Shown: piece after piece, positions 19,117 through 45,738 of the stretch
Numbering within the stretch: the stretch's first letter is position 1
Layout of the letters: each line of letters opens with the position of its first letter
DNA from: Candidatus Kaelpia imicola
GTDB lineage: Bacteria; Omnitrophota; Gorgyraeia; Kaelpiales; Kaelpiaceae
Assembly: GCA_030765505.1 (NCBI GenBank)
Contig: JAVCCL010000043.1
Coordinates: forward strand, 69,686 to 133,685
Direction: 5' to 3'
DNA length: 64,000 nucleotides
Translations under genes and position numbers: made by a program
Notes under the pieces: generated by a model
The model's input: only the letters and a program-made list of their open reading frames with translations
Databases searched by the model: none
What the model was told of the DNA's origin: nothing

Positions 19117-20628
19117 ATGAAAAATGAATATATGCAGCTCCATCGCCCTCAGTGGAAGACGAGAGTAGGTTTTTTGCTTGCAGCCTTGGGTTCAGCAGTA
19201 GGTCTTGGTAATATCTGGAGGTTCTCCTATCTCTGCTACAAGAACGGCGGCGGAGCGTTTTTAGTCCCTTACTTTATAGCTCTTTTAGTTGTAGGTATAC
19301 CGTTAATGATTCTTGAGCTTGGGGTCGGGCATAAGATGAGAGGCTCGGCTCCGATGAGTTTGGCAAAGATAAGCCGTAGATGGGAATGGCTGGGATGGTG
19401 GTCGGTAATATTTGTAATGTTTGGAATAGTTCTCTACTATTCTGTAATAATATCCTGGTGCTTCAACTATCTTCTATATGCTTTAGATCTCAGATGGGGT
19501 TCAGACCCTAACGGCTTCTTTTTCAAGCAGTTTCTCGGTGTTACCAAGGGTCCGTTTCAGATAGGCAATATCAGATTCGGGATATTGATAGCCCTTGCTT
19601 TTGTATGGTTTATAAATTGGATAATTGTTTTTTTAGGTATCGAGAAAGGAATAGAGAGGGCAAACAAGATATTTATGCCCCTGCTCTTCTTCTTAACAGC
19701 TATTCTTGTCTTTTGGAGCATAAAGCTGCCCGGTGCTTTAGAAGGCCTAAAAATATATCTTAAGCCTGATTTCTCTCTTCTTAGAGAATCCAGAGTATGG
19801 ATAGAAGCTTTCTCTCAGATATTCTTTACCTTAAGTCTCGGTTTTGGAATAATGATAACATACGGGTCTTATCTGCCTAAGAAATCTGATATAGTATTAA
19901 ACTCTTACTGTATAGCGGGTTTAAATTCTATCTTTTCTTTTTTTGCCGGGCTTGCCGTTTTTGCCACTATAGGTTATATGGCCAATCAGACCGGAGTAGG
20001 ATTTAACGAGGTTATAAAAGAGTCTATAGGGCTGGCATTTGTAGTATACCCTCAGGCTATAAGCCTGCTGCCGTTTCTACCTCAGCTTTTTGGTTTTCTG
20101 TTTTTCTTAACACTCTGTATTGCCGGTATATCGTCATCTATATCGATTATTGAGGCTTTTAGCTCTGCACTAATAGATAAGTTTCATTTCAACAGAAAGA
20201 CTATTACGAGCATAGTCTGTATTCTGGGCTTTTTCGGTTCTATGATATTTACTACCGGAGGCGGGCTGTTCTGGATAGATATAGTCGACCATTTTCTCTC
20301 TCATTACGGGTTGATAATGATTGGAATACTCCAGACTGTCTTAGTGGCCTGGGTATATAAGGCTGGAAAATTAAGAGAGCATATCGATAATGTATCCGAT
20401 CTTAAAATAGGAGTATGGTGGGACGGGGCAGTAAAATATATTATCCCGGGTGTACTTTTAATTCTCTTCTTCAATGATTTAAGTTATGAAATTTTAAACC
20501 CCTACGGAGGTTACTCTTCTATTGCATTGCTTCTCATAGGCAGGGATTGGCTTCTCTATACTCTATTTGCTGCTCTGATTTTTGCTATGTGTCCCTGGAG
20601 AAAAAATATTCATTCTAATAAGGAGTGA
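19117..20628 (+). CDS. Sodium-dependent transporter, neurotransmitter:sodium symporter (SNF) family
   Basis: GLGNIWRFSY motif and about 12 TM helices. Confidence 0.85.
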   Translation: MKNEYMQLHRPQWKTRVGFLLAALGSAVGLGNIWRFSYLCYKNGGGAFLVPYFIALLVVGIPLMILELGVGHKMRGSAPMSLAKISRRWEWLGWWSVIFVMFGIVLYYSVIISWCFNYLLYALDLRWGSDPNGFFFKQFLGVTKGPFQIGNIRFGILIALAFVWFINWIIVFLGIEKGIERANKIFMPLLFFLTAILVFWSIKLPGALEGLKIYLKPDFSLLRESRVWIEAFSQIFFTLSLGFGIMITYGSYLPKKSDIVLNSYCIAGLNSIFSFFAGLAVFATIGYMANQTGVGFNEVIKESIGLAFVVYPQAISLLPFLPQLFGFLFFLTLCIAGISSSISIIEAFSSALIDKFHFNRKTITSIVCILGFFGSMIFTTGGGLFWIDIVDHFLSHYGLIMIGILQTVLVAWVYKAGKLREHIDNVSDLKIGVWWDGAVKYIIPGVLLILFFNDLSYEILNPYGGYSSIALLLIGRDWLLYTLFAALIFAMCPWRKNIHSNKE

Positions 20629-20631
20629 GAG

Positions 20632-21363
20632 ATTATAAATATTAAATTAGTCCTGGAGTATGACGGCGGTTGTTTCTCTGGTTGGCAGAGACAGAGAGAG
20701 AAGACTACCGTACAGGGTGAGATTGAATCGGGGCTATCTAAGATTCTGTCTCAGCCTGTGAATTTAATATCTTCGGGCAGGACAGATGCTGGAGTTCATG
20801 CAAAATATCAGGTGGCCAACTTTAAGACAGAGAAAAGAGTGCAGCCTGAAGATATTAAGAGAGCTTTAAACTCACTCTTACCTTCAGATATTAGGATTAA
20901 ATTTGCACAGAGAGTGGGTTTGGATTTTCATGCTCGTTATTCTGTTAAAAACAAAATTTACAGGTATAATATATTTACAGGAGAGTATATCTCTCCGTTT
21001 AAAGTTAGATACTTCTGGCATCTGCCTTTAGGTTTGGATTTTTATAAGATGAGTGAAGAGATAGGATATATTTTAGGTAAACATGATTTTATAAATTTTC
21101 AGGCTAAAGGAAGCAGTGTTAAAGATACTAAGAGAACAGTATCTAAGGCTTTTCTGAAAAAAGACGGCAGCTATTGCAGTATCTTTATAGAGGCAGATGG
21201 TTTTCTTTATAAGATGGTAAGGTTCATTGTTGGAACTCTTGTTGAGGTTGGTAGAGGTAGATTTGAGCCTGGGAGAGTTAAAGTTCTTCTTGGCGGTAAG
21301 AGATTAAAGAGAGGTCCTGTAGCTCCAGCAGAAGGGCTTTTTCTCTGGAAGGTGAAATATTGA
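20632..21363 (+). CDS. truA: tRNA pseudouridine(38-40) synthase TruA; apparent non-canonical start (ATT/ATA) immediately after the upstream TGA
   Basis: The TruA N-terminus IKLVLEYDGGCFSGWQRQ...SSGRTDAGVHA is encoded from ~20641 in the same frame. The ORF-track start at 20758 is an internal GTG. No ATG, GTG or TTG lies between the upstream stop (20626-28) and this homology. Confidence 0.8.
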   Translation: MINIKLVLEYDGGCFSGWQRQREKTTVQGEIESGLSKILSQPVNLISSGRTDAGVHAKYQVANFKTEKRVQPEDIKRALNSLLPSDIRIKFAQRVGLDFHARYSVKNKIYRYNIFTGEYISPFKVRYFWHLPLGLDFYKMSEEIGYILGKHDFINFQAKGSSVKDTKRTVSKAFLKKDGSYCSIFIEADGFLYKMVRFIVGTLVEVGRGRFEPGRVKVLLGGKRLKRGPVAPAEGLFLWKVKY

Positions 21364-22145
21364 AGAAGATAGGCGTAAGACAGCTGCAGGATTTTTTAAA
21401 GATTTTAGGAGTAGATTATTATAAAGATGGTCTCTATTACTATAAGCTTTTAGAATACCCCTTGATTTTAAAAGAGATAGACTTTGAAGAATCTGGAAAG
21501 ATTCTTGATATAGGTTGCGGTAAAAGCTTTTTGCCGCTCTACTTTCTTTACAGGGGGTTTGAAACTTGGGTGGTGGATAATGGCGAATTCTATGCTGACT
21601 TCGATAAATTCTATAGGCAGATTCTAGATTCAAGACGTTTTATGGATGATGAGAATATGAGTATTATCTGGGGTAATTTTCAGGAAATAGATTTTCCTAC
21701 AGGTTATTTTGATTTTATTACGGCTATTTCAACATTGGAGCATTTTAAGTTTAGTGGTGATATGCAGGCAGCAATGAAGATAAATGCCTTACTTAAAAAG
21801 GGTGGAAGATTTATTGTAACTCTACCTTTCTCTCAGGCCGGTACAAGAGAGAAGTTTTTTGACAATAATGGCCATACATATTTTCAGCGTGACTATGAAT
21901 TGGATTGCGTCTTTAAAAGAATAGTTGAGCCTTCTAAATTAAAATTAAAATATTTTTATATTATTGGTGAGAGGTTTCCTTCTCTGGGAAAGTTTTTTTT
22001 CTTTAAAATGCCTTTTGCAAAACGTAAAAATACCTGGGCACGTCTCTTCTCTAAGCTATTTTGGAAGGTTTATTACAAAGGGAAGGATAGGAAGCTGCCC
22101 CAGTTTAAATATCCCGGAGTGATAATCATGGTACTAGAGAAATGA
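21360..22145 (+). CDS. Class I SAM-dependent methyltransferase
   Basis: Motif I LDIGCGKS and FDFITAISTLEH. Its start overlaps truA (ATGA). Confidence 0.7.
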   Translation: MKKIGVRQLQDFLKILGVDYYKDGLYYYKLLEYPLILKEIDFEESGKILDIGCGKSFLPLYFLYRGFETWVVDNGEFYADFDKFYRQILDSRRFMDDENMSIIWGNFQEIDFPTGYFDFITAISTLEHFKFSGDMQAAMKINALLKKGGRFIVTLPFSQAGTREKFFDNNGHTYFQRDYELDCVFKRIVEPSKLKLKYFYIIGERFPSLGKFFFFKMPFAKRKNTWARLFSKLFWKVYYKGKDRKLPQFKYPGVIIMVLEK

Positions 22146-23080
22146 AGTTATCCAAGATTTCTGTTGTAATGCCGGTCTACGATGAAGAGGATAGCCTTCC
22201 CCGTATCTTTAATGAGCTGAAAGATGTCTTAACCGGAATACCCTATGATTATGAGATAGTGATTGTAGATGACGGCAGTAAGGACGGGAGCTGGGATTTA
22301 ATATCGAGTGTTTCCAGTTCGGATGAAAAGATAAAGGCTATCAGGCTTCTTAAGAACTATGGGCAGACGGCGGCAATTCAGGTTGGTTTTGAGAATGTTA
22401 GCGGTAATCTCATTGTAGTTATGGATAGCGATGGACAGAATGACCCTGCCGATATCCCTCTCTTAATTTCAAAACTTAATGAAGGTTATGATGTTGTAAG
22501 CGGATTGAGATTTAAAAGAAAAGACTCTCTGGTAAGGAGGTTCTTCTCTTATTCCGGTAATCTCTTGATTAGAAAAACGACAGGACTTAAGATTCATGAC
22601 GTAGGCTGCAGCTTGAAGGTATATAAGAAAGAGTGGGTTGATAATTTAAAACTTCTTGGCGAAATGCATAGAATATTCGTTGTCTATCTGGCTGAGATGG
22701 GAGCTAAAGTTGCTGAAGTTAAGGTCAACCATCGTGAGAGGATAGGGGGGCGCTCAAAGTATGGAATAGCAAGGGTTATGAAATTGATGATGGACCTGAT
22801 ACTCTATAAATTCTTTACAAGCTTTGCTTCAAGACCGATATATGTATTTGGCGGAACAGGTTTTATAAGTATATCTATGTCTCTATCTGTGTTTATCTTT
22901 GTTGTCTACAGGAAGATTGTCTTTCGGGGTCTCTGGTTAAGTCCGCTATTCTTTATAGCGGTGTCGTTATTTACCGTGGGAATTCTTTTTATCATGCTGG
23001 GTATACTGGCTGAAATTGTTATGCGGATCTATTATCAGACTAAGTATGGGTTTCCTTATAAAATCAAAGAGAAGATATAG
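22142..23080 (+). CDS. GT2 polyprenyl-phosphate glycosyltransferase (DPM1/ArnC/GtrB-like) with C-terminal TM helices
   Basis: VVMPVYDEEDSL, IVIVDDGSKDGS and VVMDSDGQND (DxD) motifs, with two C-terminal TM segments. Confidence 0.8.
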   Translation: MKLSKISVVMPVYDEEDSLPRIFNELKDVLTGIPYDYEIVIVDDGSKDGSWDLISSVSSSDEKIKAIRLLKNYGQTAAIQVGFENVSGNLIVVMDSDGQNDPADIPLLISKLNEGYDVVSGLRFKRKDSLVRRFFSYSGNLLIRKTTGLKIHDVGCSLKVYKKEWVDNLKLLGEMHRIFVVYLAEMGAKVAEVKVNHRERIGGRSKYGIARVMKLMMDLILYKFFTSFASRPIYVFGGTGFISISMSLSVFIFVVYRKIVFRGLWLSPLFFIAVSLFTVGILFIMLGILAEIVMRIYYQTKYGFPYKIKEKI

Positions 23081-23086
23081 CTAAAA

Positions 23087-24952
23087 ATGTGCGGTATTCT
23101 CGGTTCATTAACCGATAGCGTTATAGATAACAGAGAGAGATTTAAGGAGGCTCTTGGTCTTTTATACCATCGCGGCCCTGATGAGATTGGGTATTTTCTG
23201 AGTCAGAATATTAGCCTGGGTTGCCGCAGGCTTAAGATCATAGGGTTAGATAATGGTAATCAGCCTATAGTTAATGAAGATGGTACATTAAGGATAATAT
23301 TTAATGGGGAAATATATAATTACAGAGAGTTAAGATCAGATCTTAAATCCAAAGGTCATCTTTTCAAAACCGATACCGATACAGAGGTTATCCTCCATCT
23401 TTATGAAGAGGAAGGAGTTGGATGTTTAGAGCGTTTTGAAGGTATGTTTGCTTTTGCTATTTGGGATAGCCGGGATAGGAGCCTTTTTATTGCCAGAGAT
23501 AGGTTCGGTATTAAGCCGCTTTTCTATTCCCATAACAGAGATGGATTTATTTTCTCGTCTTCTATCAAACCTATCTTGAAGCTTCTAAATAGTAAGCCTG
23601 GTATATCTGATAAGGCCTTAAATCTCTACTTTTGGCTGGACTATGTGCCTTCACCCTACACCATATATAAGGGTATATCCTCTCTGCTGCCGGCCCATTA
23701 CCTTGTTTTTTCAAAAGATAGGGGTTTAGATATAAAAAAGTATTATAGCCTGGGGAAGTGCGATCTTAGAAATAGAAGCAGAGAGGATATTATTTTAGAT
23801 CTGAGAGAGCGTATCTCGAACTCAGTTAAGAAACATCTTGTTTGCGATGTTGAGCCGGGTCTTTTTTTAAGCGGAGGACTTGATTCAAGTATATTGGCTT
23901 ATCATATGAATGAGCACCTGGGTTCTTTTAAGACATTCAATATCGGTTTTAGGGAGAGTAGCTTTGATGAATCAAGGTATGCAAAGTTGATTGCAGATCG
24001 GTTTAGGCTGGAATACAACTTTAAATGTTTTTCCAGCGATTATCTTTTAGGATATTTAGAGAATATTGTTTCCAGGCTGGATCAGCCTTTTGCCGATCAT
24101 TCACTATTACCTACTTATCTTCTCTCCGATTTCAGTTCTAGAAAATTAAAGCTGGTTCTTTCTGGTGATGGAGGAGATGAGTTGTTTTGCGGGTATCAGA
24201 CATATATTGCTCATAGATTATTTCGTTTTTATAAGATTATGCCTTTAAAATTAAGAGAGAGTTTTTTAAGATTGGCTCTCTCTCTTGTCCCGGTTTCTGA
24301 TAGATATTTTAGTTTAAACTTTTGTCTGGACAGATTTTCGAGGTCTCAAAGTATAAATGATATTAAGAGGCATATCTCCTGGATGGAAAGTTTTGGTCAG
24401 GAAAGAAGAGAACTTTTAAATGATAGATATGAAGATGTTGAGGATGAGTATATAGATTTTATTCAGGATAAGTTTATATCAGACTCTAAGGGGTTAGAGA
24501 AGATTCAAAAGTTCGATATTTATAGCTATCTTAGTAATGACATTTTATATAAGACTGATTTTTCAAGCATGCAGAATTCATTAGAAGTCAGGGTTCCTTA
24601 TTTAGAGAAGAGTGTGGTTGAGCTGGCTTTATCATTGCCTGAGAATCTGAAATTAAGGAATCTCAGAGATACTAAACATATATTGCGATCTGCCTACAGA
24701 GGTAGTTTGCCCGCTGCGATTCTCGAGAGGAAAAAAGCAGGCTTCAGTTTGCCTGTAGCAGGAATGTTGAGGGGTCAGTTAAAGAGTATGCTTAATGATC
24801 TTATCGAAGATAACAGTAGTCTAAGATATTTAAATAGAGGTTATCTGAAAGATATCTTCTTGGAACATTTGCAATATAGGAAGAATAACCGTAAAATACT
24901 TTGGAATATTTTGATTTTCTCTATATGGTCCATAAAACATGAAGCAGAATAA
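23087..24952 (+). CDS. asnB: Asparagine synthetase (glutamine-hydrolysing) family amidotransferase, AsnB-like
   Basis: N-terminal MCGILG (Ntn nucleophile Cys2) and the PP-loop SGGLDSS. Confidence 0.85.
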   Translation: MCGILGSLTDSVIDNRERFKEALGLLYHRGPDEIGYFLSQNISLGCRRLKIIGLDNGNQPIVNEDGTLRIIFNGEIYNYRELRSDLKSKGHLFKTDTDTEVILHLYEEEGVGCLERFEGMFAFAIWDSRDRSLFIARDRFGIKPLFYSHNRDGFIFSSSIKPILKLLNSKPGISDKALNLYFWLDYVPSPYTIYKGISSLLPAHYLVFSKDRGLDIKKYYSLGKCDLRNRSREDIILDLRERISNSVKKHLVCDVEPGLFLSGGLDSSILAYHMNEHLGSFKTFNIGFRESSFDESRYAKLIADRFRLEYNFKCFSSDYLLGYLENIVSRLDQPFADHSLLPTYLLSDFSSRKLKLVLSGDGGDELFCGYQTYIAHRLFRFYKIMPLKLRESFLRLALSLVPVSDRYFSLNFCLDRFSRSQSINDIKRHISWMESFGQERRELLNDRYEDVEDEYIDFIQDKFISDSKGLEKIQKFDIYSYLSNDILYKTDFSSMQNSLEVRVPYLEKSVVELALSLPENLKLRNLRDTKHILRSAYRGSLPAAILERKKAGFSLPVAGMLRGQLKSMLNDLIEDNSSLRYLNRGYLKDIFLEHLQYRKNNRKILWNILIFSIWSIKHEAE

Positions 24953-26663
24953 ATGGTTTCTAATATTATTTTTTATTATCCTGATCTATTCTCTTGTAGC
25001 CGTTTATATTATTGCTTCTAATTCAAATTTTCCTACAATAGATGCTCCTAACCATGCCATATTCTGTGTTCAATTTTATGGTGATACAATAGATTTATTT
25101 CATAATTCTGAGCTCTCTATTGCCGGTAAGATATTTGAATTCAGAAATATTTTTTCTAAAGGCATAATCTATTGGCCTAAGCTGCTTAATTTAAGCTCGC
25201 TGCCTTTTATGTTTATCTTTGGGTTATCAGCTTGTAGTATAAAAATGGCCAACGTATTGTATTTAATAATTTTTGCGGTTTTTGGCTATCTGCTGGCTTT
25301 AAAACTTGGAGCTAATAATAGAGAGGCTCTTTTTGTTACGATTATTCTTCCGCTCTATCCTGTTATTTTAAGGGCTATACAGAGTTACGGTTTAGATCTG
25401 CCGCTTATGAGTATAGTTGTCCTGTTTTTCTTCTTGCTTTTAAAGACAGATGGTTTTAAGAAGACCCTTTATTCAATATTGGCAGGTTCTGTGTTTGGAA
25501 TTGGCTTACTGATCAAAGGTCAGGTTGTGATATTTGTTTTATTTCCTCTCTCTCTCTATCTGTTTATTTCATTATCAAAAGAGATTAAAGGTGACGGAAA
25601 CTACATTCCTCTTTTTAGGTTACTTGCCAATCTCTCTCTATTCTTGATCTTTGCTTTTCAAATTGGTGGTTTATGGTGGCAAGGGAAGTATAATGATCTA
25701 TTATCGGCTTTAAGAGAGCATACCATACCTGATTATAAACATTTTGAGAGTTATCCTTATGAAGCTTCAGGGTCTTTAAGTTACTACCTCTTTTATTTTA
25801 AATATCTTTATTTAGATGGTTTTGGACCTCTGCTTAGCTGTTTTTCGGTATTGTCGTTTTTTAGATATATTTTTAATAAATCTCTACCTAATAAAAAAAT
25901 AGCATTATCCTGGTTGTTTTTTCCGCTCCTAATACTGTCTTTTTTGTTTAAAGTCCATCAGCTTAGATATATTATCCCCCTTGTTCCGGTTATTGTCATT
26001 ATTACTACGATAGGCTCAAGGTTTAAAAGACTGCTTTGGACTATCTTTTTTAGGTCTCTACTTTTAATTATATTAGTTTTTCGGGTCTATCTGTTAGTGT
26101 TCTCTGGGAAAGATAAGCCTCTCTGCAGTAAACTGTTTGCCATTAGGTATAGCGATGGTATTTTAAAAGATTTTGAAATGAATAATTCTGATATAGCCGA
26201 TATTTTTTATGAAAATTTAGAAGATCATTTAGCCCCCGGTCGGTATAACTGCTTGATTATCCGTTCAGCCGGCATTGAAGACGGGCCTGTTGGTATACAG
26301 CTCTGGCTTGAGATGAAAGCATATAACAAGGGTTATAGAATTTTGACCCATGATTTATATGATCAATGGTATTCAATCTATGAATGGTGGAAGGGAGAAC
26401 CGGGTAAGTATATAATATTGTTTATTGAAGACGGAAGTCAAGATTTAGGTGGGGATAGATTGTTTGATAAGGATTGGATATTAAAAAGAGATGAAGAGCT
26501 GTTTCCCAGGATAGAAGAGTTTAAAAATCATCCTGTAACGGCTGAGCTTTTAGATGAATTTTTCCCGCTTTTAAAAGAGCGGGCTCAAAAAATGTTTGAT
26601 TTTGATATAGCCATATATCACTGCGAAGCCTATGAATACGAAAATGTTCCAACCTCTTATTGA
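24939..26663 (+). CDS. GT-C fold membrane glycosyltransferase (PMT_2/ArnT-like, GT39/83-type), paralog 1
   Basis: More than 10 TM helices. An acidic/His motif IDAPNHA follows TM1. This architecture is shared with five other ORFs in the window. Confidence 0.5.
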   Translation: MKQNKWFLILFFIILIYSLVAVYIIASNSNFPTIDAPNHAIFCVQFYGDTIDLFHNSELSIAGKIFEFRNIFSKGIIYWPKLLNLSSLPFMFIFGLSACSIKMANVLYLIIFAVFGYLLALKLGANNREALFVTIILPLYPVILRAIQSYGLDLPLMSIVVLFFFLLLKTDGFKKTLYSILAGSVFGIGLLIKGQVVIFVLFPLSLYLFISLSKEIKGDGNYIPLFRLLANLSLFLIFAFQIGGLWWQGKYNDLLSALREHTIPDYKHFESYPYEASGSLSYYLFYFKYLYLDGFGPLLSCFSVLSFFRYIFNKSLPNKKIALSWLFFPLLILSFLFKVHQLRYIIPLVPVIVIITTIGSRFKRLLWTIFFRSLLLIILVFRVYLLVFSGKDKPLCSKLFAIRYSDGILKDFEMNNSDIADIFYENLEDHLAPGRYNCLIIRSAGIEDGPVGIQLWLEMKAYNKGYRILTHDLYDQWYSIYEWWKGEPGKYIILFIEDGSQDLGGDRLFDKDWILKRDEELFPRIEEFKNHPVTAELLDEFFPLLKERAQKMFDFDIAIYHCEAYEYENVPTSY

Positions 26664-29565
26664 CGGCGCTAAATCGGATCTGTTGCTTTTAATGATTCAC
26701 ACCTGGTATCCCTGGATGCCCCCTCTAGGCATATCTTATATATCAAATTATATGGAGTCTAAGGGTTATAAAGCGCTGCTCTTTGATTTTAATGCCAAAC
26801 TATACAATAATACTTCCGGTGAGAAGAAGAGGTTCTGGGATATAAGCACTATAAGCAGCTTACCGCTGCAGGATATAGTAGCTCTTTTGATAAATAGTTT
26901 TTCCAAAGAGATTGATGAATTAATCGATATAGTTCTTAAACGTCCAGAACCTATTATAGGATTCTCTACTAATTATTTAAGTATCCACGTTGTGAATCAT
27001 ATTGCTAAAATTATCAAAAGTAGAAATAGTGATAAGTTACTGATTGCAGGGGGTCCAGGTTGTTTCTGGGATCATGATCGCAGTGTTGTCGAACCTGGAG
27101 CGATAGATATTTTTGTTTTAGGAGAGGGAGAGAGGCCGCTCTATAATATAGTGGAGAGTTTTTATAAAGGGTCTAGTCTGGAAAATATTCCAGGCACTAT
27201 ATTTATAAAAGATAAAAAAGAGATAGATAATAGGCCGGCTGATCCGATATTTGATTTAAACAGCATCCCCTACCCGGATTTTAAAAATCTAGATTTAGAT
27301 GACTATGGATTTGGTGAAAAACAGACCAGAACTCTGCCTCTATTGGCCAGTCGCGGCTGTATCTCCAAGTGCACTTTCTGCATAGATCACTTTATGTGTA
27401 CCCCTTTTAGGATGAGAGAGCCAAGAAATATAGTCGATGAGATAAAGTTTCATATAAAAGAAAATGGTGTAAAAAACTTCTCTTTTAACGACCTGCTCTG
27501 TAACGGAGATTTAAAGAGACTCAGAGAATTTGCTGAGCTTATCAAAGAAGAGTCTCTCAATATACAGTGGGGCAGTTATGCTGTTGCCAGAGGGGATATG
27601 GATTTAGAGCTATTGAAGAGTCTTAAAGATGCAGGCTGTGTATCTCTCTGTTATGGGATAGAGAGCGGGTCAGATAAAATCTTAAAGGTGATGAGCAAGA
27701 TTTATACTGCCTCTGATGCTGAGCGGGTCTTAAGGTTGACAAAAGAGGCAGGCATAAAGGCTACTTTTAACATAATTATAGGCTATCCCGGGGAGGGGAG
27801 AAGGGAGTTCAAGCAGACTCTCCGTTTCGTAAAGAGAAACAGAGCTTACACAGAGAGTATTATCAATGTCTCTACTCTCTTTATCAATCCTACGGCAGCA
27901 CTTGGTGTGGAGCCTGAAAAGTTTAATATTTATTTTCCAAGACACCCCCGGAGTTTTAAGTTTATTTCATTAAAAAAGGCTTTGATTCCTAAATATTATA
28001 GTCTTTTTGGTATAAGTTCAGCTGTCAAAGATACGAAAGGAGTGGATATTTCGGAATTTGTCGATAAAAACGGAAACACAAAACCAGTAAGACTAAAAAG
28101 GTTAGTAAAGACACTCTATTTCTTGCAAAGACTGGGATTGTTTAGAAACGAGCCGATTATAAATGTTTATGCCACTAGGAACAGAAAAGTAAAGAAGGCT
28201 ATTGAATATATAGGGAGCAGGCAGAGCCTTACCTCTGGAGATCTTAGCGTTAAATGCAACAGGGAAGGTTTTGTAAGGATATTTTTAAAACATAAGTGTA
28301 TCACTGCAGGCCCGGGACTGAATATTGCTTTTTGGATTAAAGATAATTGGTATGATACATCTAGATATATCTGGGAGATTAAAAAGATAGGTTTAAATAG
28401 GATTGAGATTTTGATCAATATGGATGATATTGCTATAGAACACAAGTGGCTCTTAGAGCTTAAACCTGAAGGATTATATTGGCATATCAATGTCTGTTTT
28501 AGGGCCAAAAACTATACTGTTAACGAGACTAAGATAGGACTTCAGCTCTCAGAGTTTTATAAACATTGGTATTCTAAGTCTTATCAGGGAGAGTTTCCTG
28601 TTTTAGATGATAAATGGAAGAGCTTAGATCTGGAAGATGTCCAGAGTATTTGGGCTATGACAGAAGGAGGCTCTCCTTTAGGGGTTGAGATGAGTAAGAT
28701 TAAAAGCTCTATACCTTTGAGTTTGAGGATGGAGAGTTCTTATGCAAAGTACGGTTTTAGATTCTTAGCCTTCAGGAATAAAATTATTAGGCCTTACAAC
28801 AATAATAAGTTGAATATTAAACTGTTTTTTGGTTTTCGGGAAATACCCAAATCTTATTTAAAGATAAAAGAAGAGAAGAGAGCGTTAGAGAAAAAAGAGT
28901 TTCAGATTGTTGGAGCCGGGGATGAACTTAACGAAAGAAGAGAGCCTCTCTATGTAAAGAGATTTCGTTTTTTAGATTTAAGTATAAATAAAGGTATAAA
29001 GTTGTATTATAAGCAACGTGAGATAACGTCTGGGTGCGGAGCTATTATAACATGCCACCATAATGGCAGGATATTTGACAGTAGAGATGCTATCTGGAGC
29101 CTTATAGGTGGTAAAAATTATGATATCTTCGATCTCTATTGGGAGAATATATGTTTTCAAATAGAATGGGGGATAAGAGTTAAGAGAAACAATATTTTAT
29201 GGAGCTTTAGAGTTAATTCCTTAGAGAAGATAGAGTTAAAAGAATTGAAGTTTGGTCTTTTTTTAAATAAAAAATATGATTCTTGGTCTTTGGGTCCGTT
29301 CAGGGGGGGGTTGCCGGATAGCGTTAAAGATAGGTGGGATTATCTTCCTCTTACAAAAAGTAATGACAATAAAATATTATTAAGCTCTAGTCAAAATAAT
29401 CTTCCCGCTCTTTCATTCTCTAAATCCAAACTGGGATTTTTTCAAATAGAGGTACCCGATTTAAATATTGCAGAAGGTAAGATTATCTATGCTGCTTTAA
29501 ATAATTTATGTCTTAAGAGCGGAAAACCGTTAAATTTTCACTACAAGATTGGTCTGGAAGAATAA
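26632..29565 (+). CDS. B12-binding domain / radical SAM protein (class B) fused to a ~500-aa C-terminal region of unknown function
   Basis: The N-terminal Rossmann-like B12-binding region (LIAGGPGCF...GEGERPL) is followed by the radical SAM CxxxCxxC motif SRGCISKCTFC. The C-terminal half shows no recognisable motifs. Confidence 0.8.
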   Translation: MNTKMFQPLIDGAKSDLLLLMIHTWYPWMPPLGISYISNYMESKGYKALLFDFNAKLYNNTSGEKKRFWDISTISSLPLQDIVALLINSFSKEIDELIDIVLKRPEPIIGFSTNYLSIHVVNHIAKIIKSRNSDKLLIAGGPGCFWDHDRSVVEPGAIDIFVLGEGERPLYNIVESFYKGSSLENIPGTIFIKDKKEIDNRPADPIFDLNSIPYPDFKNLDLDDYGFGEKQTRTLPLLASRGCISKCTFCIDHFMCTPFRMREPRNIVDEIKFHIKENGVKNFSFNDLLCNGDLKRLREFAELIKEESLNIQWGSYAVARGDMDLELLKSLKDAGCVSLCYGIESGSDKILKVMSKIYTASDAERVLRLTKEAGIKATFNIIIGYPGEGRREFKQTLRFVKRNRAYTESIINVSTLFINPTAALGVEPEKFNIYFPRHPRSFKFISLKKALIPKYYSLFGISSAVKDTKGVDISEFVDKNGNTKPVRLKRLVKTLYFLQRLGLFRNEPIINVYATRNRKVKKAIEYIGSRQSLTSGDLSVKCNREGFVRIFLKHKCITAGPGLNIAFWIKDNWYDTSRYIWEIKKIGLNRIEILINMDDIAIEHKWLLELKPEGLYWHINVCFRAKNYTVNETKIGLQLSEFYKHWYSKSYQGEFPVLDDKWKSLDLEDVQSIWAMTEGGSPLGVEMSKIKSSIPLSLRMESSYAKYGFRFLAFRNKIIRPYNNNKLNIKLFFGFREIPKSYLKIKEEKRALEKKEFQIVGAGDELNERREPLYVKRFRFLDLSINKGIKLYYKQREITSGCGAIITCHHNGRIFDSRDAIWSLIGGKNYDIFDLYWENICFQIEWGIRVKRNNILWSFRVNSLEKIELKELKFGLFLNKKYDSWSLGPFRGGLPDSVKDRWDYLPLTKSNDNKILLSSSQNNLPALSFSKSKLGFFQIEVPDLNIAEGKIIYAALNNLCLKSGKPLNFHYKIGLEE

Positions 29566-29690
29566 GAAACAAGATGCTTTTAATTTTATTTTAATTTATT
29601 TTACAGAACAATGTTGAATGAAATAATAAGATTTTGGTCTCTATTAGAGCGCTTCTTTAGGAGAAGTGTTTTTATTAAGGAGAGATAGGT

Positions 29691-31640: not shown

Positions 31641-31757
31641 GCGGTTATTCTGCAGTTTCTCTATTTGAAAGTTCAGTTTTCGTATTTACTCCGCTGCAGT
31701 TTTCTGTTAACCTTTATCTGTATTTTGCAAGTTTTTCTAGCGATAATTAAACTTTAT

Positions 31758-31831
31758 GCGCCTGTGGCTCAATTGGATAGAGCGGCTGGCTACGGACCAG
31801 TAGATTGGGGGTTCGAGTCCCTCCAGGCGTG
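31758..31831 (+). tRNA. tRNA-Arg (anticodon ACG)
   Basis: Hand-folded cloverleaf. Acceptor stem GCGCCTG/CAGGCGT with a G1-U72 wobble. D-arm GCTC...GAGC. Anticodon loop CTACGGA gives ACG. T-arm GGGGGTTCGAGTCCCTC. CCA is not encoded. Confidence 0.8.
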
Positions 31832-31846
31832 TATGTTTTTTACACA

Positions 31847-32302
31847 ATGAACGACAATTTTTACATGCAGGAGGCTTTAAAAGAGGCTTTTAAAGCACTG
31901 GATAAAGACGAGGTGCCTGTTGGGGCGGTTATAGTATATCAGAATAAGATAGTAGCCCGAGCATACAATCAGGTAAGAATGTTAAAGGATCCTACTGCTC
32001 ATGCGGAGATTCTTGCTATAACACAGGCAGCAGATTATTTAAAGTACGAGAGATTGAATGGATGTAATATCTATGTTACAATCGAGCCGTGTATAATGTG
32101 TGCTGGTGCGTTAATATTGGCGCGGGTAGATAAATTGATATACGGAGCTTCAGATAATAGACAGGGAGCTTTTGGTTCTCTGCTGGATGTTACAAAATAC
32201 AAAGATACGCATCATAAGATAAAAGTAAAGAATGGTGTTTTAAAAGAAGATTGTGCTTTTTTAGTTCAGGATTTTTTTAAAGAGAAAAGAGTTACAGCTT
32301 AA
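31847..32302 (+). CDS. tadA: tRNA-specific adenosine deaminase TadA
   Basis: HAEILAI and PCIMCAGAL zinc-binding CDA motifs. ATG at 31847, 16 nt after the tRNA-Arg gene. The ORF-track start at 31805 overlaps the tRNA. Confidence 0.9.
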   Translation: MNDNFYMQEALKEAFKALDKDEVPVGAVIVYQNKIVARAYNQVRMLKDPTAHAEILAITQAADYLKYERLNGCNIYVTIEPCIMCAGALILARVDKLIYGASDNRQGAFGSLLDVTKYKDTHHKIKVKNGVLKEDCAFLVQDFFKEKRVTA

Positions 32303-32308: not shown

Positions 32309-32400
32309 GGAGAGGTGGCTGAGCGGCCGAAAGCAGCCGCCTGCTAAGCGGTTGGCCCTGTAAAAGGGGCCCCCGGGTTCAAATCCCGGCCTCTCCGCCA
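32309..32400 (+). tRNA. tRNA-Ser (anticodon GCU), class II with long variable arm; CCA encoded
   Basis: Acceptor stem GGAGAGG/CCTCTCC with discriminator G and CCA. Anticodon loop CTGCTAA gives GCT. Long variable stem ggccc/gggcc. T-arm CGGGTTCAAATCCCG. Confidence 0.8.
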
Positions 32401-35612: not shown

Positions 35613-36800
35613 ATGAAGAATAAAGATGTTGCCCGGTTATATTCTAAATATATTATGGATACATATACCCATCTTCCAATCTCTCTTGTAAAGGGAAGAG
35701 AGTCCAGGGTATGGGATTTAGAGCAGAATGAGTATTTGGATTTATTTCCAGGTTGGGGTGTCTCTATTTTGGGACATTCTCCTTCTAAGGTTGTCTCTCA
35801 TATTAGAAATCAAGCCGGTAAGATAATACATATATCTAACAATTACTACAACCACCTCCAGGCTAAGCTTGCTCAAAAAATAGTTAAAATAGCGCAGATC
35901 GACGCCAAAGTTTTTTTCTGCAATTCAGGAGCAGAGGCTAATGAAGGAGCCTTTAAACTGGCAAGGTTATACGGAGCAGGCAATAGATATAAAATAATTA
36001 CGATGAACGACTCTTTTCATGGCAGAACTCTAGCCTCTCTCTCTGCAACAGGGCAGGAAAAATACAAAAAAGATTTCGAGCCTCTACCCGAAGGTTTTAC
36101 CCATGTTCCTTTTAACGATTTTGAGGCTTTTCAGAGCAGTGTTGACAATGAAACTGTGGCGATTATGTTAGAGCTGGTTCAGGGTGAGGGCGGTATAAAT
36201 GTTGCCGATTACGACTATATCCAGAGAGTGAAAAAGTTTTGTAATGAGCGGGATATATTATTTATTGCTGATGAGGTTCAGACTGGAATGGGTAGGACCG
36301 GAAAATGGTTTGCATATCAGAATTTTGACATTGAGCCCGATATAGTTACTTTAGCAAAAGGTATTGGCGGAGGAGTTCCTATGGGTGCTGTTTTTGCCAA
36401 AGATAAGGTTGCTGATTGTATTAAGCCTGGAATGCATGCTTCTACTTTTGGCGGAAGCCCTATTGCATGTAAAGCGGCTTTAGCCGTTGTAGATACTATA
36501 ATGAGCAAGAAATTGCTCAATAATGTAACCGATATGAGTAAATATTTTAAAGGCAGGCTGCTGGATTTAAAAGAAAAGTATGATTTAATAGATAGTGTTA
36601 GAGGTTTAGGTCTCATGATAGGTGTGGAGGTTAAAGATAAAGGCAAGGAGATTTTTGAGGGCTGCCTTGCTAATAGGCTTTTAATTAATTTAACCCAGGG
36701 CAATATCTTAAGATTTTTGCCGGCGCTGAATATTAACAAAAAGGATATAGATAAAGCTATTATAATATTAGATGGAGTATTAAAAGAGGTGCAGAGATGA
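35613..36800 (+). CDS. argD: Acetylornithine aminotransferase (class III PLP aminotransferase)
   Basis: Class III aminotransferase motifs including GIGGGVPMGA and the PLP-lysine region. Adjacent to argF. Confidence 0.85.
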   Translation: MKNKDVARLYSKYIMDTYTHLPISLVKGRESRVWDLEQNEYLDLFPGWGVSILGHSPSKVVSHIRNQAGKIIHISNNYYNHLQAKLAQKIVKIAQIDAKVFFCNSGAEANEGAFKLARLYGAGNRYKIITMNDSFHGRTLASLSATGQEKYKKDFEPLPEGFTHVPFNDFEAFQSSVDNETVAIMLELVQGEGGINVADYDYIQRVKKFCNERDILFIADEVQTGMGRTGKWFAYQNFDIEPDIVTLAKGIGGGVPMGAVFAKDKVADCIKPGMHASTFGGSPIACKAALAVVDTIMSKKLLNNVTDMSKYFKGRLLDLKEKYDLIDSVRGLGLMIGVEVKDKGKEIFEGCLANRLLINLTQGNILRFLPALNINKKDIDKAIIILDGVLKEVQR

Positions 36801-37525
36801 ATCATTTTTTAAGCATTAATGATTTAAGCAGGAAAGATATAACAGGGTTTATCAATGCTGCAAAAAATCTTAAAAAGAAGAGAAGGCAGGAGAAGATACT
36901 TAAAGGCAAGAGTTTCGTTCTTTTATTTGATAAACCTTCTTTAAGAACAAAGGTTAGCTTTGAAGTCGCCATAGCTGAACTTGGAGGTAGCTATTCATAT
37001 TTAGGAGATGGTTCGGCTGGGTTCGGTAAGCGTGAATCTCTCAAAGATACGGCAGAGGTGCTTTCAAGGTATATCCATTGTTCTATTGTAAGAACTTTTA
37101 AACAGAAAGACCTTTTAAGGTTTGCACGGTTTTCTTCAGCTTCTGTCGTTAATGCTCTTACTGATACAGAGCATCCCTGCCAGATTTTAAGCGACCTTCT
37201 AACCATAACTGAAAAAGTTGGGAGCCTGGATAATTTTAAAATTGCTTTCATCGGTGATGGTAATAATGTCTGTAATTCACTTATACAGGCAGCAGCAGTT
37301 TTGAAGTTCAAACTGTCAATTGCAACACCTTCTGGTTATGAGCCTAAGAGAGAGAGCTATAGGGTTAAACTGGAAGATTTAAATAAGCAGAGCTTAAGAG
37401 TAGAGATAGTCAATTCACCTCAAGATGCGGTAAGAGATGCAGATTTTGTATACACAGATGTTTGGACCTCTATGGGTTGGGAAGAAGAGCAGTCAGATAG
37501 AAAAAAGATCTTTGAGTCCTATTAA
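36797..37525 (+). CDS. argF: Ornithine carbamoyltransferase, interrupted by an in-frame TAA; homology continues in-frame to 37711
   Basis: STRTKVSFE-type motif PSLRTKVSFE. After the TAA at 37523-37525, the same frame encodes ...[21 protein letters not shown]...[16 protein letters not shown], the conserved OTC C-terminus. Confidence 0.8.
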   Translation: MNHFLSINDLSRKDITGFINAAKNLKKKRRQEKILKGKSFVLLFDKPSLRTKVSFEVAIAELGGSYSYLGDGSAGFGKRESLKDTAEVLSRYIHCSIVRTFKQKDLLRFARFSSASVVNALTDTEHPCQILSDLLTITEKVGSLDNFKIAFIGDGNNVCNSLIQAAAVLKFKLSIATPSGYEPKRESYRVKLEDLNKQSLRVEIVNSPQDAVRDADFVYTDVWTSMGWEEEQSDRKKIFESY

Positions 37526-41240: not shown

Positions 41241-41257
41241 ATTGGTGCTTAATTGTC

Positions 41258-45737: not shown

Positions 45738-45738
45738 T

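What the first reader, a model, noticed from the sequence alone, without database searches (positions are those of the whole stretch)
21360..29565. Operon truA-MT-GT2-asnB-GT-C-(B12-radical-SAM fusion): candidate undescribed lipid-linked glycan modification pathway
Five overlapping genes follow truA. The encoded proteins are a SAM methyltransferase, a membrane-anchored DPM1/ArnC-like GT2 (which makes polyprenyl-phosphate-sugar donors), an AsnB-type amidotransferase, a polytopic GT-C transferase (which uses such lipid-linked donors), and a class-B B12-binding radical SAM enzyme. The AsnB-like enzyme, the methyltransferase and the rSAM enzyme could all modify a sugar or lipid intermediate. ArnC+ArnT-type pairs are known, but coupling them with a B12-rSAM enzyme and an AsnB amidotransferase in one translationally coupled operon is not a described pathway as far as I can tell.
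Basis: partly seen in the sequence, partly recalled or inferred. Interest (0 to 1): 0.7.

Follow-up and report, generated by a model that had tools for sequence, protein, structure and literature searches.

The report
Omnitrophota lipid-linked sugar tailoring operon
A real, conserved and so far undescribed operon of an uncultivated Omnitrophota bacterium probably builds a sugar on a membrane lipid carrier, modifies it chemically and transfers it to the cell surface. One of the modifying enzymes is a vitamin-B12 radical enzyme fused to sugar-binding domains.

Summary
Five tightly packed genes follow truA. They encode a SAM methyltransferase, an ArnC-like GT2 with two C-terminal membrane helices, an AsnB-type glutamine amidotransferase, a GT-C-fold transferase and a 977-aa B12-type radical SAM (rSAM) protein.

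The source is a MAG of Candidatus Kaelpia imicola (Omnitrophota). The same order, after truA, recurs in at least seven further distinct lineages, down to 45% rSAM identity. Distant Omnitrophota carry the same components in other orders and other neighbourhoods, so this is not a chance juxtaposition. The core is GT2-AsnB-GT-C-rSAM. The methyltransferase and a sixth gene (GT87 or another membrane protein) come and go.

Best reading: a polyprenyl-phosphate sugar is made and tailored in the cytoplasm (amidation, probably C-methylation, optional methylation), then transferred in the periplasm by the GT-C. The chemistry and the acceptor are inferred, not shown. No curated family or paper found here describes it. 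I rate it a new variant of ArnC/ArnT-type systems.

The parts
20632..21363 (+). truA (tRNA pseudouridine synthase). It is the upstream gene, overlapping the methyltransferase gene by 4 nt. It marks the conserved insertion point of the operon and is probably not functionally part of it.
   Evidence: PF01416 and TIGR00071. The conserved N-terminus 'IINIKLVLEYDGG' has no ATG/GTG/TTG start. ATT at 20632 lies 6 nt after an AAGGAG ribosome-binding site. truA precedes the operon in every relative with enough flank.
21360..22145 (+). Class I SAM-dependent methyltransferase (261 aa, soluble). An accessory tailoring enzyme.
   Evidence: Methyltransf_23/11/25 and no hydrophobic segment. It is lost in L011, where an in-frame deletion scar remains, and in L012. 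A 30%-identical homologue sits in the rearranged cluster of L030.
22142..23080 (+). ArnC/GtrB/DPM1-type GT2, a predicted polyprenyl-phosphate sugar synthase (312 aa, two C-terminal membrane helices).
   Evidence: PF00535 at 111.8 bits. The ArnC model NF007986 scores 208 bits, below its cutoff of 529. The closest solved structures are ArnC (E 1.7e-55), GtrB sll0501 (2e-33) and DPMS (2.6e-22). Hydrophobic segments lie at about 235-252 and 259-290.
23087..24952 (+). AsnB-type glutamine-dependent amidotransferase (621 aa, soluble).
   Evidence: Asn_synthase 267.6 bits, GATase_7 160 bits, TIGR01536 450 bits (above cutoff), and the XrtA/PEP-CTERM amidotransferase model at 455 bits (below its cutoff of 817). 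The catalytic Cys2 (MCGILG) and the PP-loop motif SGGLDS at residue 262 are both present. A 41%-identical homologue lies beside GT2 and GT-C in L009, and another in L030.
24939..26663 (+). GT-C-fold polytopic glycosyltransferase (574 aa) with a C-terminal soluble α/β domain from about residue 430 to 570.
   Evidence: PMT_2 at 24.7 bits. AlphaFold model pLDDT 75.8, pTM 0.79. Foldseek top hits are STT3, ArnT, AftA, ALG9, PglB, Emb and PMT. Invariant residues across 10 homologues are D35 and H39 in the first loop, W79-P80, D153 and K193. The family is very narrow: 11 proteins among 5.8 billion.
26632..27912 (+). Catalytic half of the rSAM protein (aa 1-427): a B12-binding-type N-terminal domain plus the radical SAM core.
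   Evidence: PF04055 at 72.8 bits over residues 240-400; PF02310 at 24 bits over residues 29-173. The motif C243-x3-C247-x2-C250 is present. Full-length alignments to curated B12-rSAM models (PhpK, RiPP C-methyltransferase, HpnJ, BchE, QCMT) all fall below their cutoffs. The closest solved structures are 9ccb (E 4.7e-14), identified as QCMT in the review read, and AprD4 (2.4e-10).
28225..28842 (+). Galactose-mutarotase-like β-sandwich domain, repeat 1 (rSAM aa ~532-737).
28951..29559 (+). Galactose-mutarotase-like β-sandwich domain, repeat 2 (rSAM aa ~774-976).
   Evidence: Internal repeat: 25% identity over 122 aa, E 7e-8. Same fold in the model.

Best explanation
This is a clade-conserved operon of Omnitrophota (here Ca. 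Kaelpia imicola) for a carrier-lipid-based envelope glycosylation pathway with unusual cytoplasmic tailoring.

Proposed steps:
1. The membrane-anchored ArnC/GtrB-type GT2 loads a sugar from a nucleotide sugar onto polyprenyl (undecaprenyl) phosphate at the cytoplasmic face.
2. The soluble AsnB-type enzyme uses glutamine and ATP to turn a carboxylate of that sugar, or of its nucleotide precursor, into a carboxamide. The likeliest case is uronic acid to uronamide.
3. The B12-type radical SAM enzyme is held on its substrate by two C-terminal mutarotase-like glycan-binding domains and performs radical chemistry on the sugar. C-methylation is the most likely reaction.
4. Where it is present, the class I methyltransferase adds an O- or N-methyl group.
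5. After flipping by a factor that is not encoded here, the GT-C enzyme transfers the modified sugar to a periplasmic acceptor (lipid A/LPS, another glycan or a surface protein). In relatives a second GT-C (GT87) does the same or extends the product.

Shown: the gene set, its coupling, its conservation, the protein families and the folds. Inferred: the substrate, the order of the steps, the chemistry of each tailoring enzyme and the acceptor.
For: Operon structure: 4-32 nt overlaps or a 6-nt spacer at every junction.

Conservation: the same order after truA occurs in L001, L002/L016, L003/L004/L017, L005/L006, L011, L012 and L014, with partial copies in L013 and L015. Identity to the window ranges from 84% down to 45% for the rSAM protein.

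Independent rearranged co-occurrence:
- L009: rSAM arrays, GT2, GT-C, AsnB, GT4, in a purine-gene neighbourhood.
- L030: rSAM arrays, MT, GT2, B12-rSAM, two GT-C, AsnB.
- L024: rSAM arrays, B12-rSAM, GT2, a carbamoyltransferase (a family that by my recollection includes sugar O-carbamoyltransferases such as NodU and TobZ), GT-C.
- A second MT/GT2/GT-C/B12-rSAM island in the same window at 37722-48451.

GT2: closest to ArnC, GtrB and DPMS, with two C-terminal membrane helices.

GT-C: the fold is confirmed, and an invariant Asp sits in the first loop.

AsnB: both active sites are intact.

Topology: MT, AsnB and rSAM have no hydrophobic segments and so are cytoplasmic.

Cofactor supply: a cobalamin riboswitch lies upstream of a TonB-receptor/BtuFCD-like importer in the same window.

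Precedents: an AsnB homologue sits in a characterised glycan cluster in Tannerella, and class B rSAMs methylate carbohydrates, with MoeK5, GenK and Fom3 listed in the review read.
Against: There is no experimental data of any kind, and the organism is uncultivated. The sugar, the acceptor and the rSAM chemistry are all unknown.

The B12-binding Pfam hit is below its gathering score in this protein. No curated rSAM subfamily is matched.

AsnB passes the generic asparagine synthase model, and the neighbourhood is rich in amino-acid biosynthesis genes (leu, asd, arg, dap). It could therefore also be, or only be, the cell's asparagine synthetase.

The operon encodes no flippase and no nucleotide-sugar enzyme such as a UDP-sugar dehydrogenase. 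The mutarotase-like fold implies sugar binding only by analogy.

The methyltransferase is dispensable in two lineages, and the sixth gene is missing here. The end product therefore differs between relatives.
Confidence: 0.55

Rival explanations
1. The tailoring enzymes act on a peptide or protein, so the cluster is a RiPP-like or protein-modification cluster. The AsnB homologue would be a lasso-cyclase or macrolactam-type enzyme, the B12-rSAM a peptide C-methyltransferase (PoyC, QCMT or ApyD type), and GT2 plus GT-C a separate Ppm1/Pmt-like protein O-glycosylation pair.
For: The RiPP C-methyltransferase model TIGR03975 scores 116 bits and ApyD 110 bits. The lasso cyclase model NF033535 scores 222 bits on AsnB. 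All of these are below their cutoffs. The closest solved rSAM structure is QCMT, a protein glutamine C-methyltransferase. Distant clusters carry SPASM-domain rSAMs, which are common in RiPP pathways. NCBI names the K. aquatica GT-C 'glycosyltransferase family 39'.
Against: The tightly packed operon leaves no room for a small precursor ORF. AsnB keeps the glutaminase Cys2 and scores far better on glutamine-hydrolysing amidotransferase models, at 450-455 bits. The rSAM C-terminus has a carbohydrate-binding-type fold that is shared with ABC-transporter ATPases in glycan-type clusters and with a PMT-type GT-C, not a peptide-recognition (RRE) fold. The recurrent partners are glycosyltransferases and a carbamoyltransferase.
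Confidence: 0.1
2. The B12-rSAM enzyme modifies a lipid rather than a sugar: the polyprenyl carrier or a membrane lipid. This would resemble the hopanoid methylases HpnP/HpnR or tetraether-lipid rSAM enzymes. The glycosyltransferases would then decorate that lipid.
For: HpnJ (114 bits), the lipid-biosynthesis B12-rSAM model TIGR04072 (92 bits) and HpnR (48 bits) are among the matches, all below their cutoffs. Omnitrophota are mentioned in papers on rSAM lipid enzymes. The product of the GT2 is itself a lipid.
Against: The fused domains have a sugar-binding-type fold and are shared with ABC-transporter ATPases, one of them beside an ABC-2 permease and GT4 genes. The rSAM protein has no membrane segment. 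No lipid-synthesis genes are linked in any of the loci.
Confidence: 0.1
3. The grouping has no joint function. AsnB is the housekeeping asparagine synthetase sitting among amino-acid biosynthesis genes, and the rSAM and methyltransferase genes are unrelated passengers next to an ordinary GT2/GT-C pair.
For: TIGR01536 is passed. The flanks are leuD, leuB, asd and truA upstream, and dnaX, recR, argD, argF, argG, lysA and dapFAB downstream. The whole region is collinear among relatives, so conserved order alone is weak evidence within this clade.
Against: The start and stop codons overlap. GT2, GT-C, AsnB and B12-rSAM also co-occur in different orders and different neighbourhoods in L009 and L030, at 30-43% identity. 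The rSAM protein carries a glycan-type binding module.
Confidence: 0.06
4. It is a known Arn-type (lipid A aminoarabinose) or Gtr-type (O-antigen glucosylation) locus.
For: ArnC is the best model and the best solved structure for the GT2. ArnT is among the best fold matches for the GT-C.
Against: The ArnC equivalog scores 208 bits against a cutoff of 529. The GT-C gives no NCBIfam hit at all, including ArnT. No ArnA, ArnB, ArnD, ArnE/F or GtrA homologue is present in the operon. AsnB and the rSAM protein have no role in either pathway.
Confidence: 0.02

Closest known systems
ArnC/ArnT, and the related pairs GtrB/GtrC, Ppm1/Pmt, PpgS/Rv3779 and PgfS/PgfM2: a polyprenyl-phosphate sugar synthase plus a GT-C transferase
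   Same: A GT2 with C-terminal membrane helices that is closest to ArnC (E 1.7e-55), paired in one operon with a GT-C-fold enzyme. The overall logic is the same: load the carrier lipid in the cytoplasm and transfer in the periplasm.
   Different: No curated equivalog threshold is passed. ArnA/B/D, ArnE/F and GtrA are absent. The operon adds an AsnB-type amidotransferase, a B12-rSAM protein with glycan-binding domains and a methyltransferase. The GT-C family is very narrow, with 11 proteins found.
Moenomycin unit-F tailoring: MoeK5, a B12-rSAM C-methyltransferase; MoeF5, an AsnB-like amidotransferase; MoeM5, a carbamoyltransferase
   Same: By my recollection, an AsnB-like enzyme and a class B rSAM methylase act there on a lipid-linked uronic acid to give a C-methyl uronamide. 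MoeK5 is listed as a Csp3-methyltransferase in the review read. A carbamoyltransferase also appears in a related Omnitrophota cluster, L024.
   Different: Moenomycin is a Streptomyces secondary metabolite built on a phosphoglycerate lipid by cytoplasmic glycosyltransferases, with no GT-C and no mutarotase-like fusion. Sequence relatedness to MoeK5 and MoeF5 could not be tested, because the sequences and the primary paper were not available.
HpnI/HpnJ/HpnK: hopanoid glucosamine and cyclitol ether formation
   Same: By my recollection, a GT2 puts a sugar on a lipid and a B12-rSAM (HpnJ) then rearranges that lipid-linked sugar. The HpnJ model aligns over residues 113-404 at 114 bits.
   Different: The score is far below the HpnJ cutoff of 577.6. 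There are no hopanoid genes here. The lipid acceptor is different, and that system has no GT-C, no AsnB and no glycan-binding fusion.
C-terminal carbohydrate-binding domains of Wzt, the ATPase of O-antigen ABC exporters
   Same: By analogy from my own knowledge, a cytoplasmic domain appended to the exporter ATPase recognises the finished lipid-linked glycan. The domain found in this rSAM protein occurs as 2-5 repeats C-terminal to ABC_tran in 29 of the 40 closest representatives. In L007 it lies beside an ABC-2 permease.
   Different: The fold here is the mutarotase-like supersandwich. No Pfam model, including the known Wzt C-terminal model, matches these regions. Glycan binding has not been demonstrated.
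AsnB-type amidotransferases in glycan and exopolysaccharide loci: the XrtA/PEP-CTERM amidotransferase TIGR03108, Tannerella asnB, and WbpS-type enzymes
   Same: A full-length glutamine-dependent AsnB homologue embedded among glycosyltransferases and methyltransferases. TIGR03108 scores 455 bits over the whole length. The Tannerella O-glycosylation cluster contains asnB together with methyltransferases.
   Different: The score is below the TIGR03108 cutoff of 816.9. There is no XrtA/PEP-CTERM context. The substrates of those enzymes are themselves mostly inferred.

Membership tests
Polyprenyl-phosphate glycosyltransferase (GT2, ArnC/GtrB/DPM1 type) | GT-A GT2 catalytic domain | tested here: met
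   PF00535 at 111.8 bits against a gathering score of 23.3.
Polyprenyl-phosphate glycosyltransferase (GT2, ArnC/GtrB/DPM1 type) | C-terminal transmembrane hairpin and closest similarity to enzymes that use a polyprenyl-phosphate acceptor | tested here: met
   Hydrophobic segments at about 235-252 and 259-290. The full-length best solved structures are ArnC, GtrB and DPMS.
ArnC proper (undecaprenyl-phosphate Ara4FN transferase) | Passes the equivalog model NF007986 and sits with arnA/B/D/T/E/F | tested here: not met
   208.5 bits against a cutoff of 529. No other arn genes are present.
GT-C glycosyltransferase superfamily | Polytopic GT-C fold | tested here: met
   Model pTM 0.79. The 34 best Foldseek matches in the PDB are all GT-C enzymes, with E down to 8e-7 and TM-scores of about 0.5.
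GT-C glycosyltransferase superfamily | Conserved acidic residue in the first extracytoplasmic loop | tested here: met
   D35 (with H39) is invariant in 10 homologues down to 24% identity. Its catalytic role is inferred.
PMT_2 / GT39 / GT83 family | Passes Pfam PF13231 or PF02366 | tested here: inconclusive
   24.7 bits against a gathering score of 26.1 for the window protein. Orthologues P0122 and P0125 and the distant P0129 carry the precomputed domain. There are no NCBIfam hits.
Class II glutamine amidotransferase / asparagine synthase B family | N-terminal nucleophile Cys, PP-loop SGGxDS motif, and family models passed | tested here: met
   MCGILG at the N-terminus and SGGLDS at residue 262. 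PF00733 at 267.6 bits, PF13537 at 160 bits, TIGR01536 at 450.5 bits against a cutoff of 267.1.
Asparagine synthetase in the strict sense (aspartate as substrate) | Makes asparagine from aspartate | not testable with these tools
   The E. coli AsnB-type model NF006949 scores 297 bits against a cutoff of 499. The operon context argues for another carboxylate substrate, but it does not exclude aspartate.
Class B (cobalamin-dependent) radical SAM enzymes | Radical SAM core with a CxxxCxxC motif | tested here: met
   PF04055 at 72.8 bits. C243-x3-C247-x2-C250.
Class B (cobalamin-dependent) radical SAM enzymes | N-terminal cobalamin-binding Rossmann domain | tested here: inconclusive
   PF02310 at 24 bits against a gathering score of 32.1. 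Curated B12-rSAM models do align from about residue 30 to 430, and many homologues carry the precomputed PF02310. Cobalamin binding itself was not tested.
Any curated B12-rSAM subfamily (PhpK, RiPP C-methyltransferase, HpnJ, BchE, QCMT, ladderane type, BzaD and others) | Passes the model's trusted cutoff | tested here: not met
   The best is PhpK at 129.5 bits against a cutoff of 600. All 32 matches are below their cutoffs.
Galactose mutarotase-like (aldose 1-epimerase) fold | β-supersandwich fold | tested here: met
Aldose 1-epimerase enzymes | Conserved catalytic His and Glu residues (from my own knowledge of GalM) | tested here: not met
   The invariant and near-invariant positions across 15 homologous tandems are Gly, Trp, Tyr, Thr, Arg, Glu and Ala, with no conserved His. 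No Pfam Aldose_epim hit. This points to a binding module rather than an epimerase.

The most novel reading that the evidence does not exclude
Omnitrophota as a phylum use arrays of cobalamin-dependent (and SPASM-type) radical SAM enzymes to modify lipid-linked envelope glycans, probably by C-methylation. These enzymes would be targeted by a previously unrecognised mutarotase-like glycan-recognition module that they share with ABC glycan-exporter ATPases and with a GT-C enzyme. That would be a new substrate class for class B rSAM enzymes (primary cell-surface glycans rather than antibiotics, cofactors, lipids or peptides) and a new cytoplasmic carbohydrate-binding module family. The window's five-gene operon would be the most compact version and the easiest to work with experimentally.
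Probability: 0.4. Interest if true: 0.75.

Novelty: new variant of a known kind. Interest (0 to 1): 0.6.

Why it matters
If the model is right, it extends radical SAM/B12 chemistry to the tailoring of carrier-lipid-linked cell-envelope sugars.

It would also define a new glycan-recognition domain that links the tailoring enzymes to the exporter.

It would give a first handle on the surface chemistry of Omnitrophota. This is a widespread, uncultivated phylum of very small, possibly host-dependent bacteria, for which surface glycans are likely to matter in cell-cell contact.

The compact four-gene core (GT2, AsnB, GT-C, rSAM) is small enough for heterologous reconstitution. Its product, possibly a C-methylated uronamide sugar, would be a new building block.

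The finding remains a genomic prediction. It is moderately surprising rather than paradigm-changing, because each component family and the carrier-lipid logic are already known.

Tried and rejected
- Exact look-up of the window's rSAM protein in the contig index found nothing. The source organism was identified instead from a 100%-identical NCBI protein.
- Promoter and terminator scans were at chance level (55 found against 47±6 expected; 11 against 10±3) and were not used.
- The word-index search with the C-terminal domain alignment returned a single protein, an ABC ATPase. The exhaustive HMMER search was needed to see the family.
- The afdb50 fold library was unavailable.
- The moenomycin primary paper is not held, and searches for MoeK5/MoeF5 found nothing. 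That analogy therefore rests on my own knowledge plus one review line.
- A GT87 homologue was sought in the window by tblastn and is absent.
- The Arn, Gtr and Pgf readings were rejected on model cutoffs and missing partner genes.
- An aldose-epimerase enzymatic role for the C-terminal domains was rejected for lack of conserved catalytic residues.
- The methyltransferase has no informative relatives among solved structures.

Full report
**1. What is there**

The window is AT-rich (about 37% G+C) and almost every gene lies on the + strand. Five ORFs sit at the stated coordinates:

| Gene | Coordinates | Length |
|---|---|---|
| Methyltransferase (MT) | 21360-22145 | 261 aa |
| GT2 | 22142-23080 | 312 aa |
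| AsnB homologue | 23087-24952 | 621 aa |
| GT-C | 24939-26663 | 574 aa |
| Radical SAM (rSAM) | 26632-29565 | 977 aa |

The junctions are overlaps of 4, 4, 14 and 32 nt, plus one 6-nt spacer between GT2 and AsnB. The first MT codon also overlaps the truA stop codon.

truA itself is longer than the ORF finder reports. The conserved N-terminus 'IINIKLVLEYDGG' has no canonical start codon. It most likely begins at ATT 20632, 6 nt after an AAGGAG ribosome-binding site.

A PAS histidine kinase follows after 125 nt, and a sodium:neurotransmitter-family transporter precedes truA.

**2. Families**

- **MT.** Class I SAM methyltransferase (Methyltransf_23/11/25). Nothing more specific emerges.
- **GT2.** PF00535 scores 111.8 bits. 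The best curated model is ArnC (208 bits, cutoff 529), followed by PgfS. The best solved structures are ArnC (E 1.7e-55), Synechocystis GtrB (2e-33) and Pyrococcus DPMS. Two C-terminal hydrophobic helices are present. This is the signature of enzymes that load a sugar onto polyprenyl phosphate.
- **AsnB.** Both domains score strongly. TIGR01536 passes (450 against 267). The XrtA/PEP-CTERM amidotransferase model aligns end to end (455 bits, below its cutoff). The glutaminase Cys2 and the PP-loop motif SGGLDS are intact, so this is an active glutamine- and ATP-dependent amidotransferase.
- **GT-C.** PMT_2 falls just below its gathering score (24.7 against 26.1). There is no NCBIfam hit and no sequence hit in the PDB. 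The AlphaFold model (pLDDT 75.8, pTM 0.79) matches only GT-C enzymes at the top of the list: STT3, ArnT, AftA, ALG9, PglB, EmbA/B/C and Pmt. D35 and H39 in the first loop, W79-P80, D153 and K193 are invariant across homologues down to 24% identity.
- **rSAM.** The Radical_SAM core scores 72.8 bits and carries C243-x3-C247-x2-C250. The N-terminal region gives a sub-threshold B12-binding hit. It aligns over its full length to many curated B12-rSAM models (PhpK, RiPP C-methyltransferase, HpnJ, BchE, ApyD, QCMT and others), none above its cutoff. The closest solved structure is 9ccb (E 4.7e-14), which is QCMT.

**3. Source and conservation**

The rSAM protein is 100% identical to a protein of a Candidatus Kaelpia imicola MAG. 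This is an Omnitrophota genus described from Ace Lake, Antarctica.

Orthologous loci keep the order leuD-leuB-asd-SNF-truA-[MT]-GT2-AsnB-GT-C-rSAM-[sixth gene]. They are Ca. K. aquatica (84% rSAM identity), Ca. Saelkia tenebricola (49%), Omnitrophica 4484_49 (45%) and several metagenome lineages.

A scan of one genome per GTDB species found 25 loci. All come from Omnitrophota MAGs, or from MAGs deposited as 'uncultured Planctomycetia/Planctomycetales' or, in one case, simply 'uncultured bacterium'.

Two elements are variable:

- **The MT.** It has been deleted in L011, leaving an in-frame scar that joins its first and last codons, and it is absent from L012.
- **The sixth gene.** In relatives it is a GT87-family GT-C that directly follows the rSAM gene in L001 and L002, overlapping it by 4 nt. 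Other relatives (L003, L004, L006, L017) have an unrelated 426-458 aa membrane protein in its place. It is absent from this window.

The conserved core is therefore GT2-AsnB-GT-C-rSAM.

Between the window and Saelkia, the rSAM catalytic half is 61% identical. The rSAM C-terminal half is only 37% identical and the GT-C 45%. These are the parts expected to track the glycan and the acceptor.

**4. Is the linkage functional?**

Collinearity within one clade is weak evidence on its own. The same parts also recur independently:

- **L009/L010** (GT-C 30% identical): rSAM arrays, GT2 (42%), GT-C, AsnB (41%) and a GT4, next to purine genes.
- **L030:** a triple rSAM-SPASM protein, several B12-rSAM proteins, an MT (30%), GT2, a further B12-rSAM, two GT-C genes and AsnB.
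- **L024:** rSAM-SPASM proteins, a B12-rSAM, GT2, a carbamoyltransferase (Carbam_trans N- and C-terminal domains) and a GT-C.
- **L007:** an ABC-2 permease, an ABC ATPase, three giant rSAM proteins, four GT4 genes, a PF00953 (MraY/WecA-family) transferase and a Wzy_C protein.
- **This window, 37722-48451:** a second island between argF and argG, absent from K. aquatica. It holds four GT-C-like genes, a short GT2, an MT and two B12-rSAM genes.

The association of polyprenyl-phosphate sugar synthases, GT-C transferases and B12-rSAM enzymes is thus a recurrent Omnitrophota theme. It is not a chance juxtaposition.

**5. The 'fusion' part of the rSAM protein**

Residues from about 430 to 977 have no Pfam or NCBIfam match. 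They contain an internal repeat (25% identity over 122 aa, E 7e-8).

The positions conserved among homologues are mostly Trp, Gly and Tyr, with no conserved His. I read this as a binding module, not an epimerase.

An exhaustive HMMER search of 1.84 billion cluster representatives finds only 211 proteins carrying this domain. Of the 40 best, 29 are ABC-transporter ATPases carrying the domain, 4 are rSAM/SPASM proteins and 1 is a PMT-type GT-C.

The L007 ATPase has three copies C-terminal to its ABC domain and lies beside an ABC-2 permease. From my own knowledge, the ATPases (Wzt) of O-antigen ABC exporters carry C-terminal carbohydrate-binding domains that recognise the finished undecaprenyl-linked glycan in the cytoplasm.

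By analogy, this domain is most simply a cytoplasmic glycan-recognition module that the exporter and the tailoring enzymes share.

**6. Mechanism proposed**

The following steps are inferred.

1. GT2 makes a polyprenyl-phosphate sugar at the inner face of the membrane.
2. AsnB amidates a carboxylate, most plausibly turning a uronic acid into a uronamide, either on the nucleotide sugar or on the lipid-linked sugar.
3. The rSAM protein, docked by its tandem glycan-binding domains, does radical chemistry on the sugar.
   - C-methylation is the commonest activity of class B enzymes.
   - Ring rearrangement (HpnJ/OxsB-like) and deoxygenation (AprD4-like) are alternatives.
4. The MT adds an optional methyl group.
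5. An unidentified flippase moves the product across the membrane.
6. The GT-C transfers the sugar to an unknown periplasmic acceptor. In relatives the GT87 does the same or extends the product.

MT, AsnB and rSAM have no membrane segments, which fits cytoplasmic tailoring. A cobalamin riboswitch (1165-1389, 64 bits) upstream of a TonB receptor and a BtuFCD-like importer in the same window shows that the cell imports corrinoids.

Because the operon sits at a fixed core-genome position across genera, its product is more likely a clade-wide envelope feature than a strain-variable antigen. The second island, by contrast, looks variable.

**7. Rivals**

- **RiPP or protein-modification reading.** The sub-threshold matches to peptide-modifying families and the SPASM partners support it. 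Against it are the absence of a precursor ORF, the intact glutaminase site, the sugar-type binding fold and the glycosyltransferase-rich company.
- **Lipid-methylation reading (HpnP/HpnR-like).** The same fold evidence weakens it.
- **A purely housekeeping AsnB.** This cannot be excluded for the asparagine function, but it is unlikely to explain the linkage.
- **Arn or Gtr identity.** This fails on model cutoffs and on the missing partner genes.

**8. Comparison with what is known, and novelty**

In outline this is an ArnC/ArnT- or PpgS/Rv3779-type two-step carrier-lipid system. It differs in three ways:

- An AsnB-type amidotransferase and a B12-rSAM enzyme are obligatorily linked to it.
- The rSAM enzyme is fused to a glycan-recognition module.
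- The GT-C family is narrow and restricted to Omnitrophota, apart from MAGs deposited as uncultured Planctomycetia or uncultured bacterium.

The nearest chemical precedents are moenomycin unit-F tailoring and HpnI/HpnJ. The first combines an AsnB-like amidation with a MoeK5 B12-rSAM C-methylation on a lipid-linked uronic acid. That description is from my own knowledge, although MoeK5 is listed. Neither precedent involves a GT-C or this fusion.

No paper in the searchable library describes the operon. I rate it a new variant of a known kind, with interest 0.6. It is well supported as a conserved and unusual gene module, but its chemistry and its acceptor remain predictions for an uncultivated organism.

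Noticed in passing
window 37722-48451: A second island with the same theme lies between argF and argG. On the + strand are two GT-C-like genes (37722-39305, 39306-41240). On the - strand are an MT (41258-41956), a short GT2 without membrane helices (41940-42665), a GT-C (42653-44302), two B12-rSAM genes (44289-45737, 45739-47121) and another GT-C (47237-48451). In Ca. K. aquatica argF and argG are only about 540 bp apart, so this is a lineage-specific insertion, with lower G+C (0.33-0.37).
   Followed up: partly
window 1165-1389 and 1522-6133: A cobalamin riboswitch (Rfam RF00174, 64 bits) lies upstream of a TonB-dependent receptor, a BtuF-like binding protein, a FecCD permease and an ABC ATPase. 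This is probably a corrinoid uptake system, which fits the three B12-rSAM genes in the window.
   Followed up: partly
window 20626-20760: truA has no canonical start codon for its conserved N-terminus. The likely start is ATT 20632 or ATA 20635, just after an AAGGAG site. Ca. K. aquatica has the same ATT-ATA-AAT-ATT sequence. The first canonical start (GTG 20758) would remove about 42 conserved residues.
   Followed up: partly
window 36797-37705 (stop near 37523): argF (ornithine carbamoyltransferase) carries an in-frame TAA where Ca. K. aquatica has CAA (Gln243). The rest of the gene stays in frame and is 86% identical. This could be a nonsense mutation, a pseudogene or a MAG consensus error.
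   Followed up: partly
L001 12925-14082, L002 12949-14118; window 29566-29690: Relatives carry a sixth operon gene that the window lacks. In L001 and L002 it is a GT87-family GT-C overlapping the rSAM stop codon by 4 nt. The L003, L004, L006 and L017 lineages instead carry an unrelated 426-458 aa membrane protein without a Pfam match at that position. In the window only 125 nt separate the rSAM gene from the histidine kinase.
   Followed up: yes
L007 600-14620, L009 1-9040, L030 21-13881, L024 895-14306: Other Omnitrophota encode giant multi-domain rSAM proteins next to glycan genes. They include up to three rSAM-SPASM units or two to three B12-rSAM units in one polypeptide of 1000-1540 aa. 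Some carry the same mutarotase-like domain. Their function is unknown.
   Followed up: partly
L011 4160-4230: An in-frame deletion scar of the methyltransferase gene reads 'LKKISIKQLPRFKYLGVIIVVLEK'. It joins the N- and C-terminal codons of the MT. This shows a recent loss of the MT from an otherwise intact operon.
   Followed up: yes
window 31757-31832 and 31805-32302: tRNA-Arg(ACG) overlaps the 5' end of the ORF-finder's 165-aa ORF. By synteny with L001 and L002 that ORF should be the dCMP deaminase-family gene (not scanned here), so its real start must lie further downstream. tRNA-Ser(GCT) lies at 32309-32400.
   Followed up: no
window 6166-7284: An NAD-dependent sugar epimerase/dehydratase (372 aa) lies directly after the Btu-like transporter. 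Its Pfam match is split into two stretches. It is a possible nucleotide-sugar enzyme, and no link to the operon has been shown.
   Followed up: no
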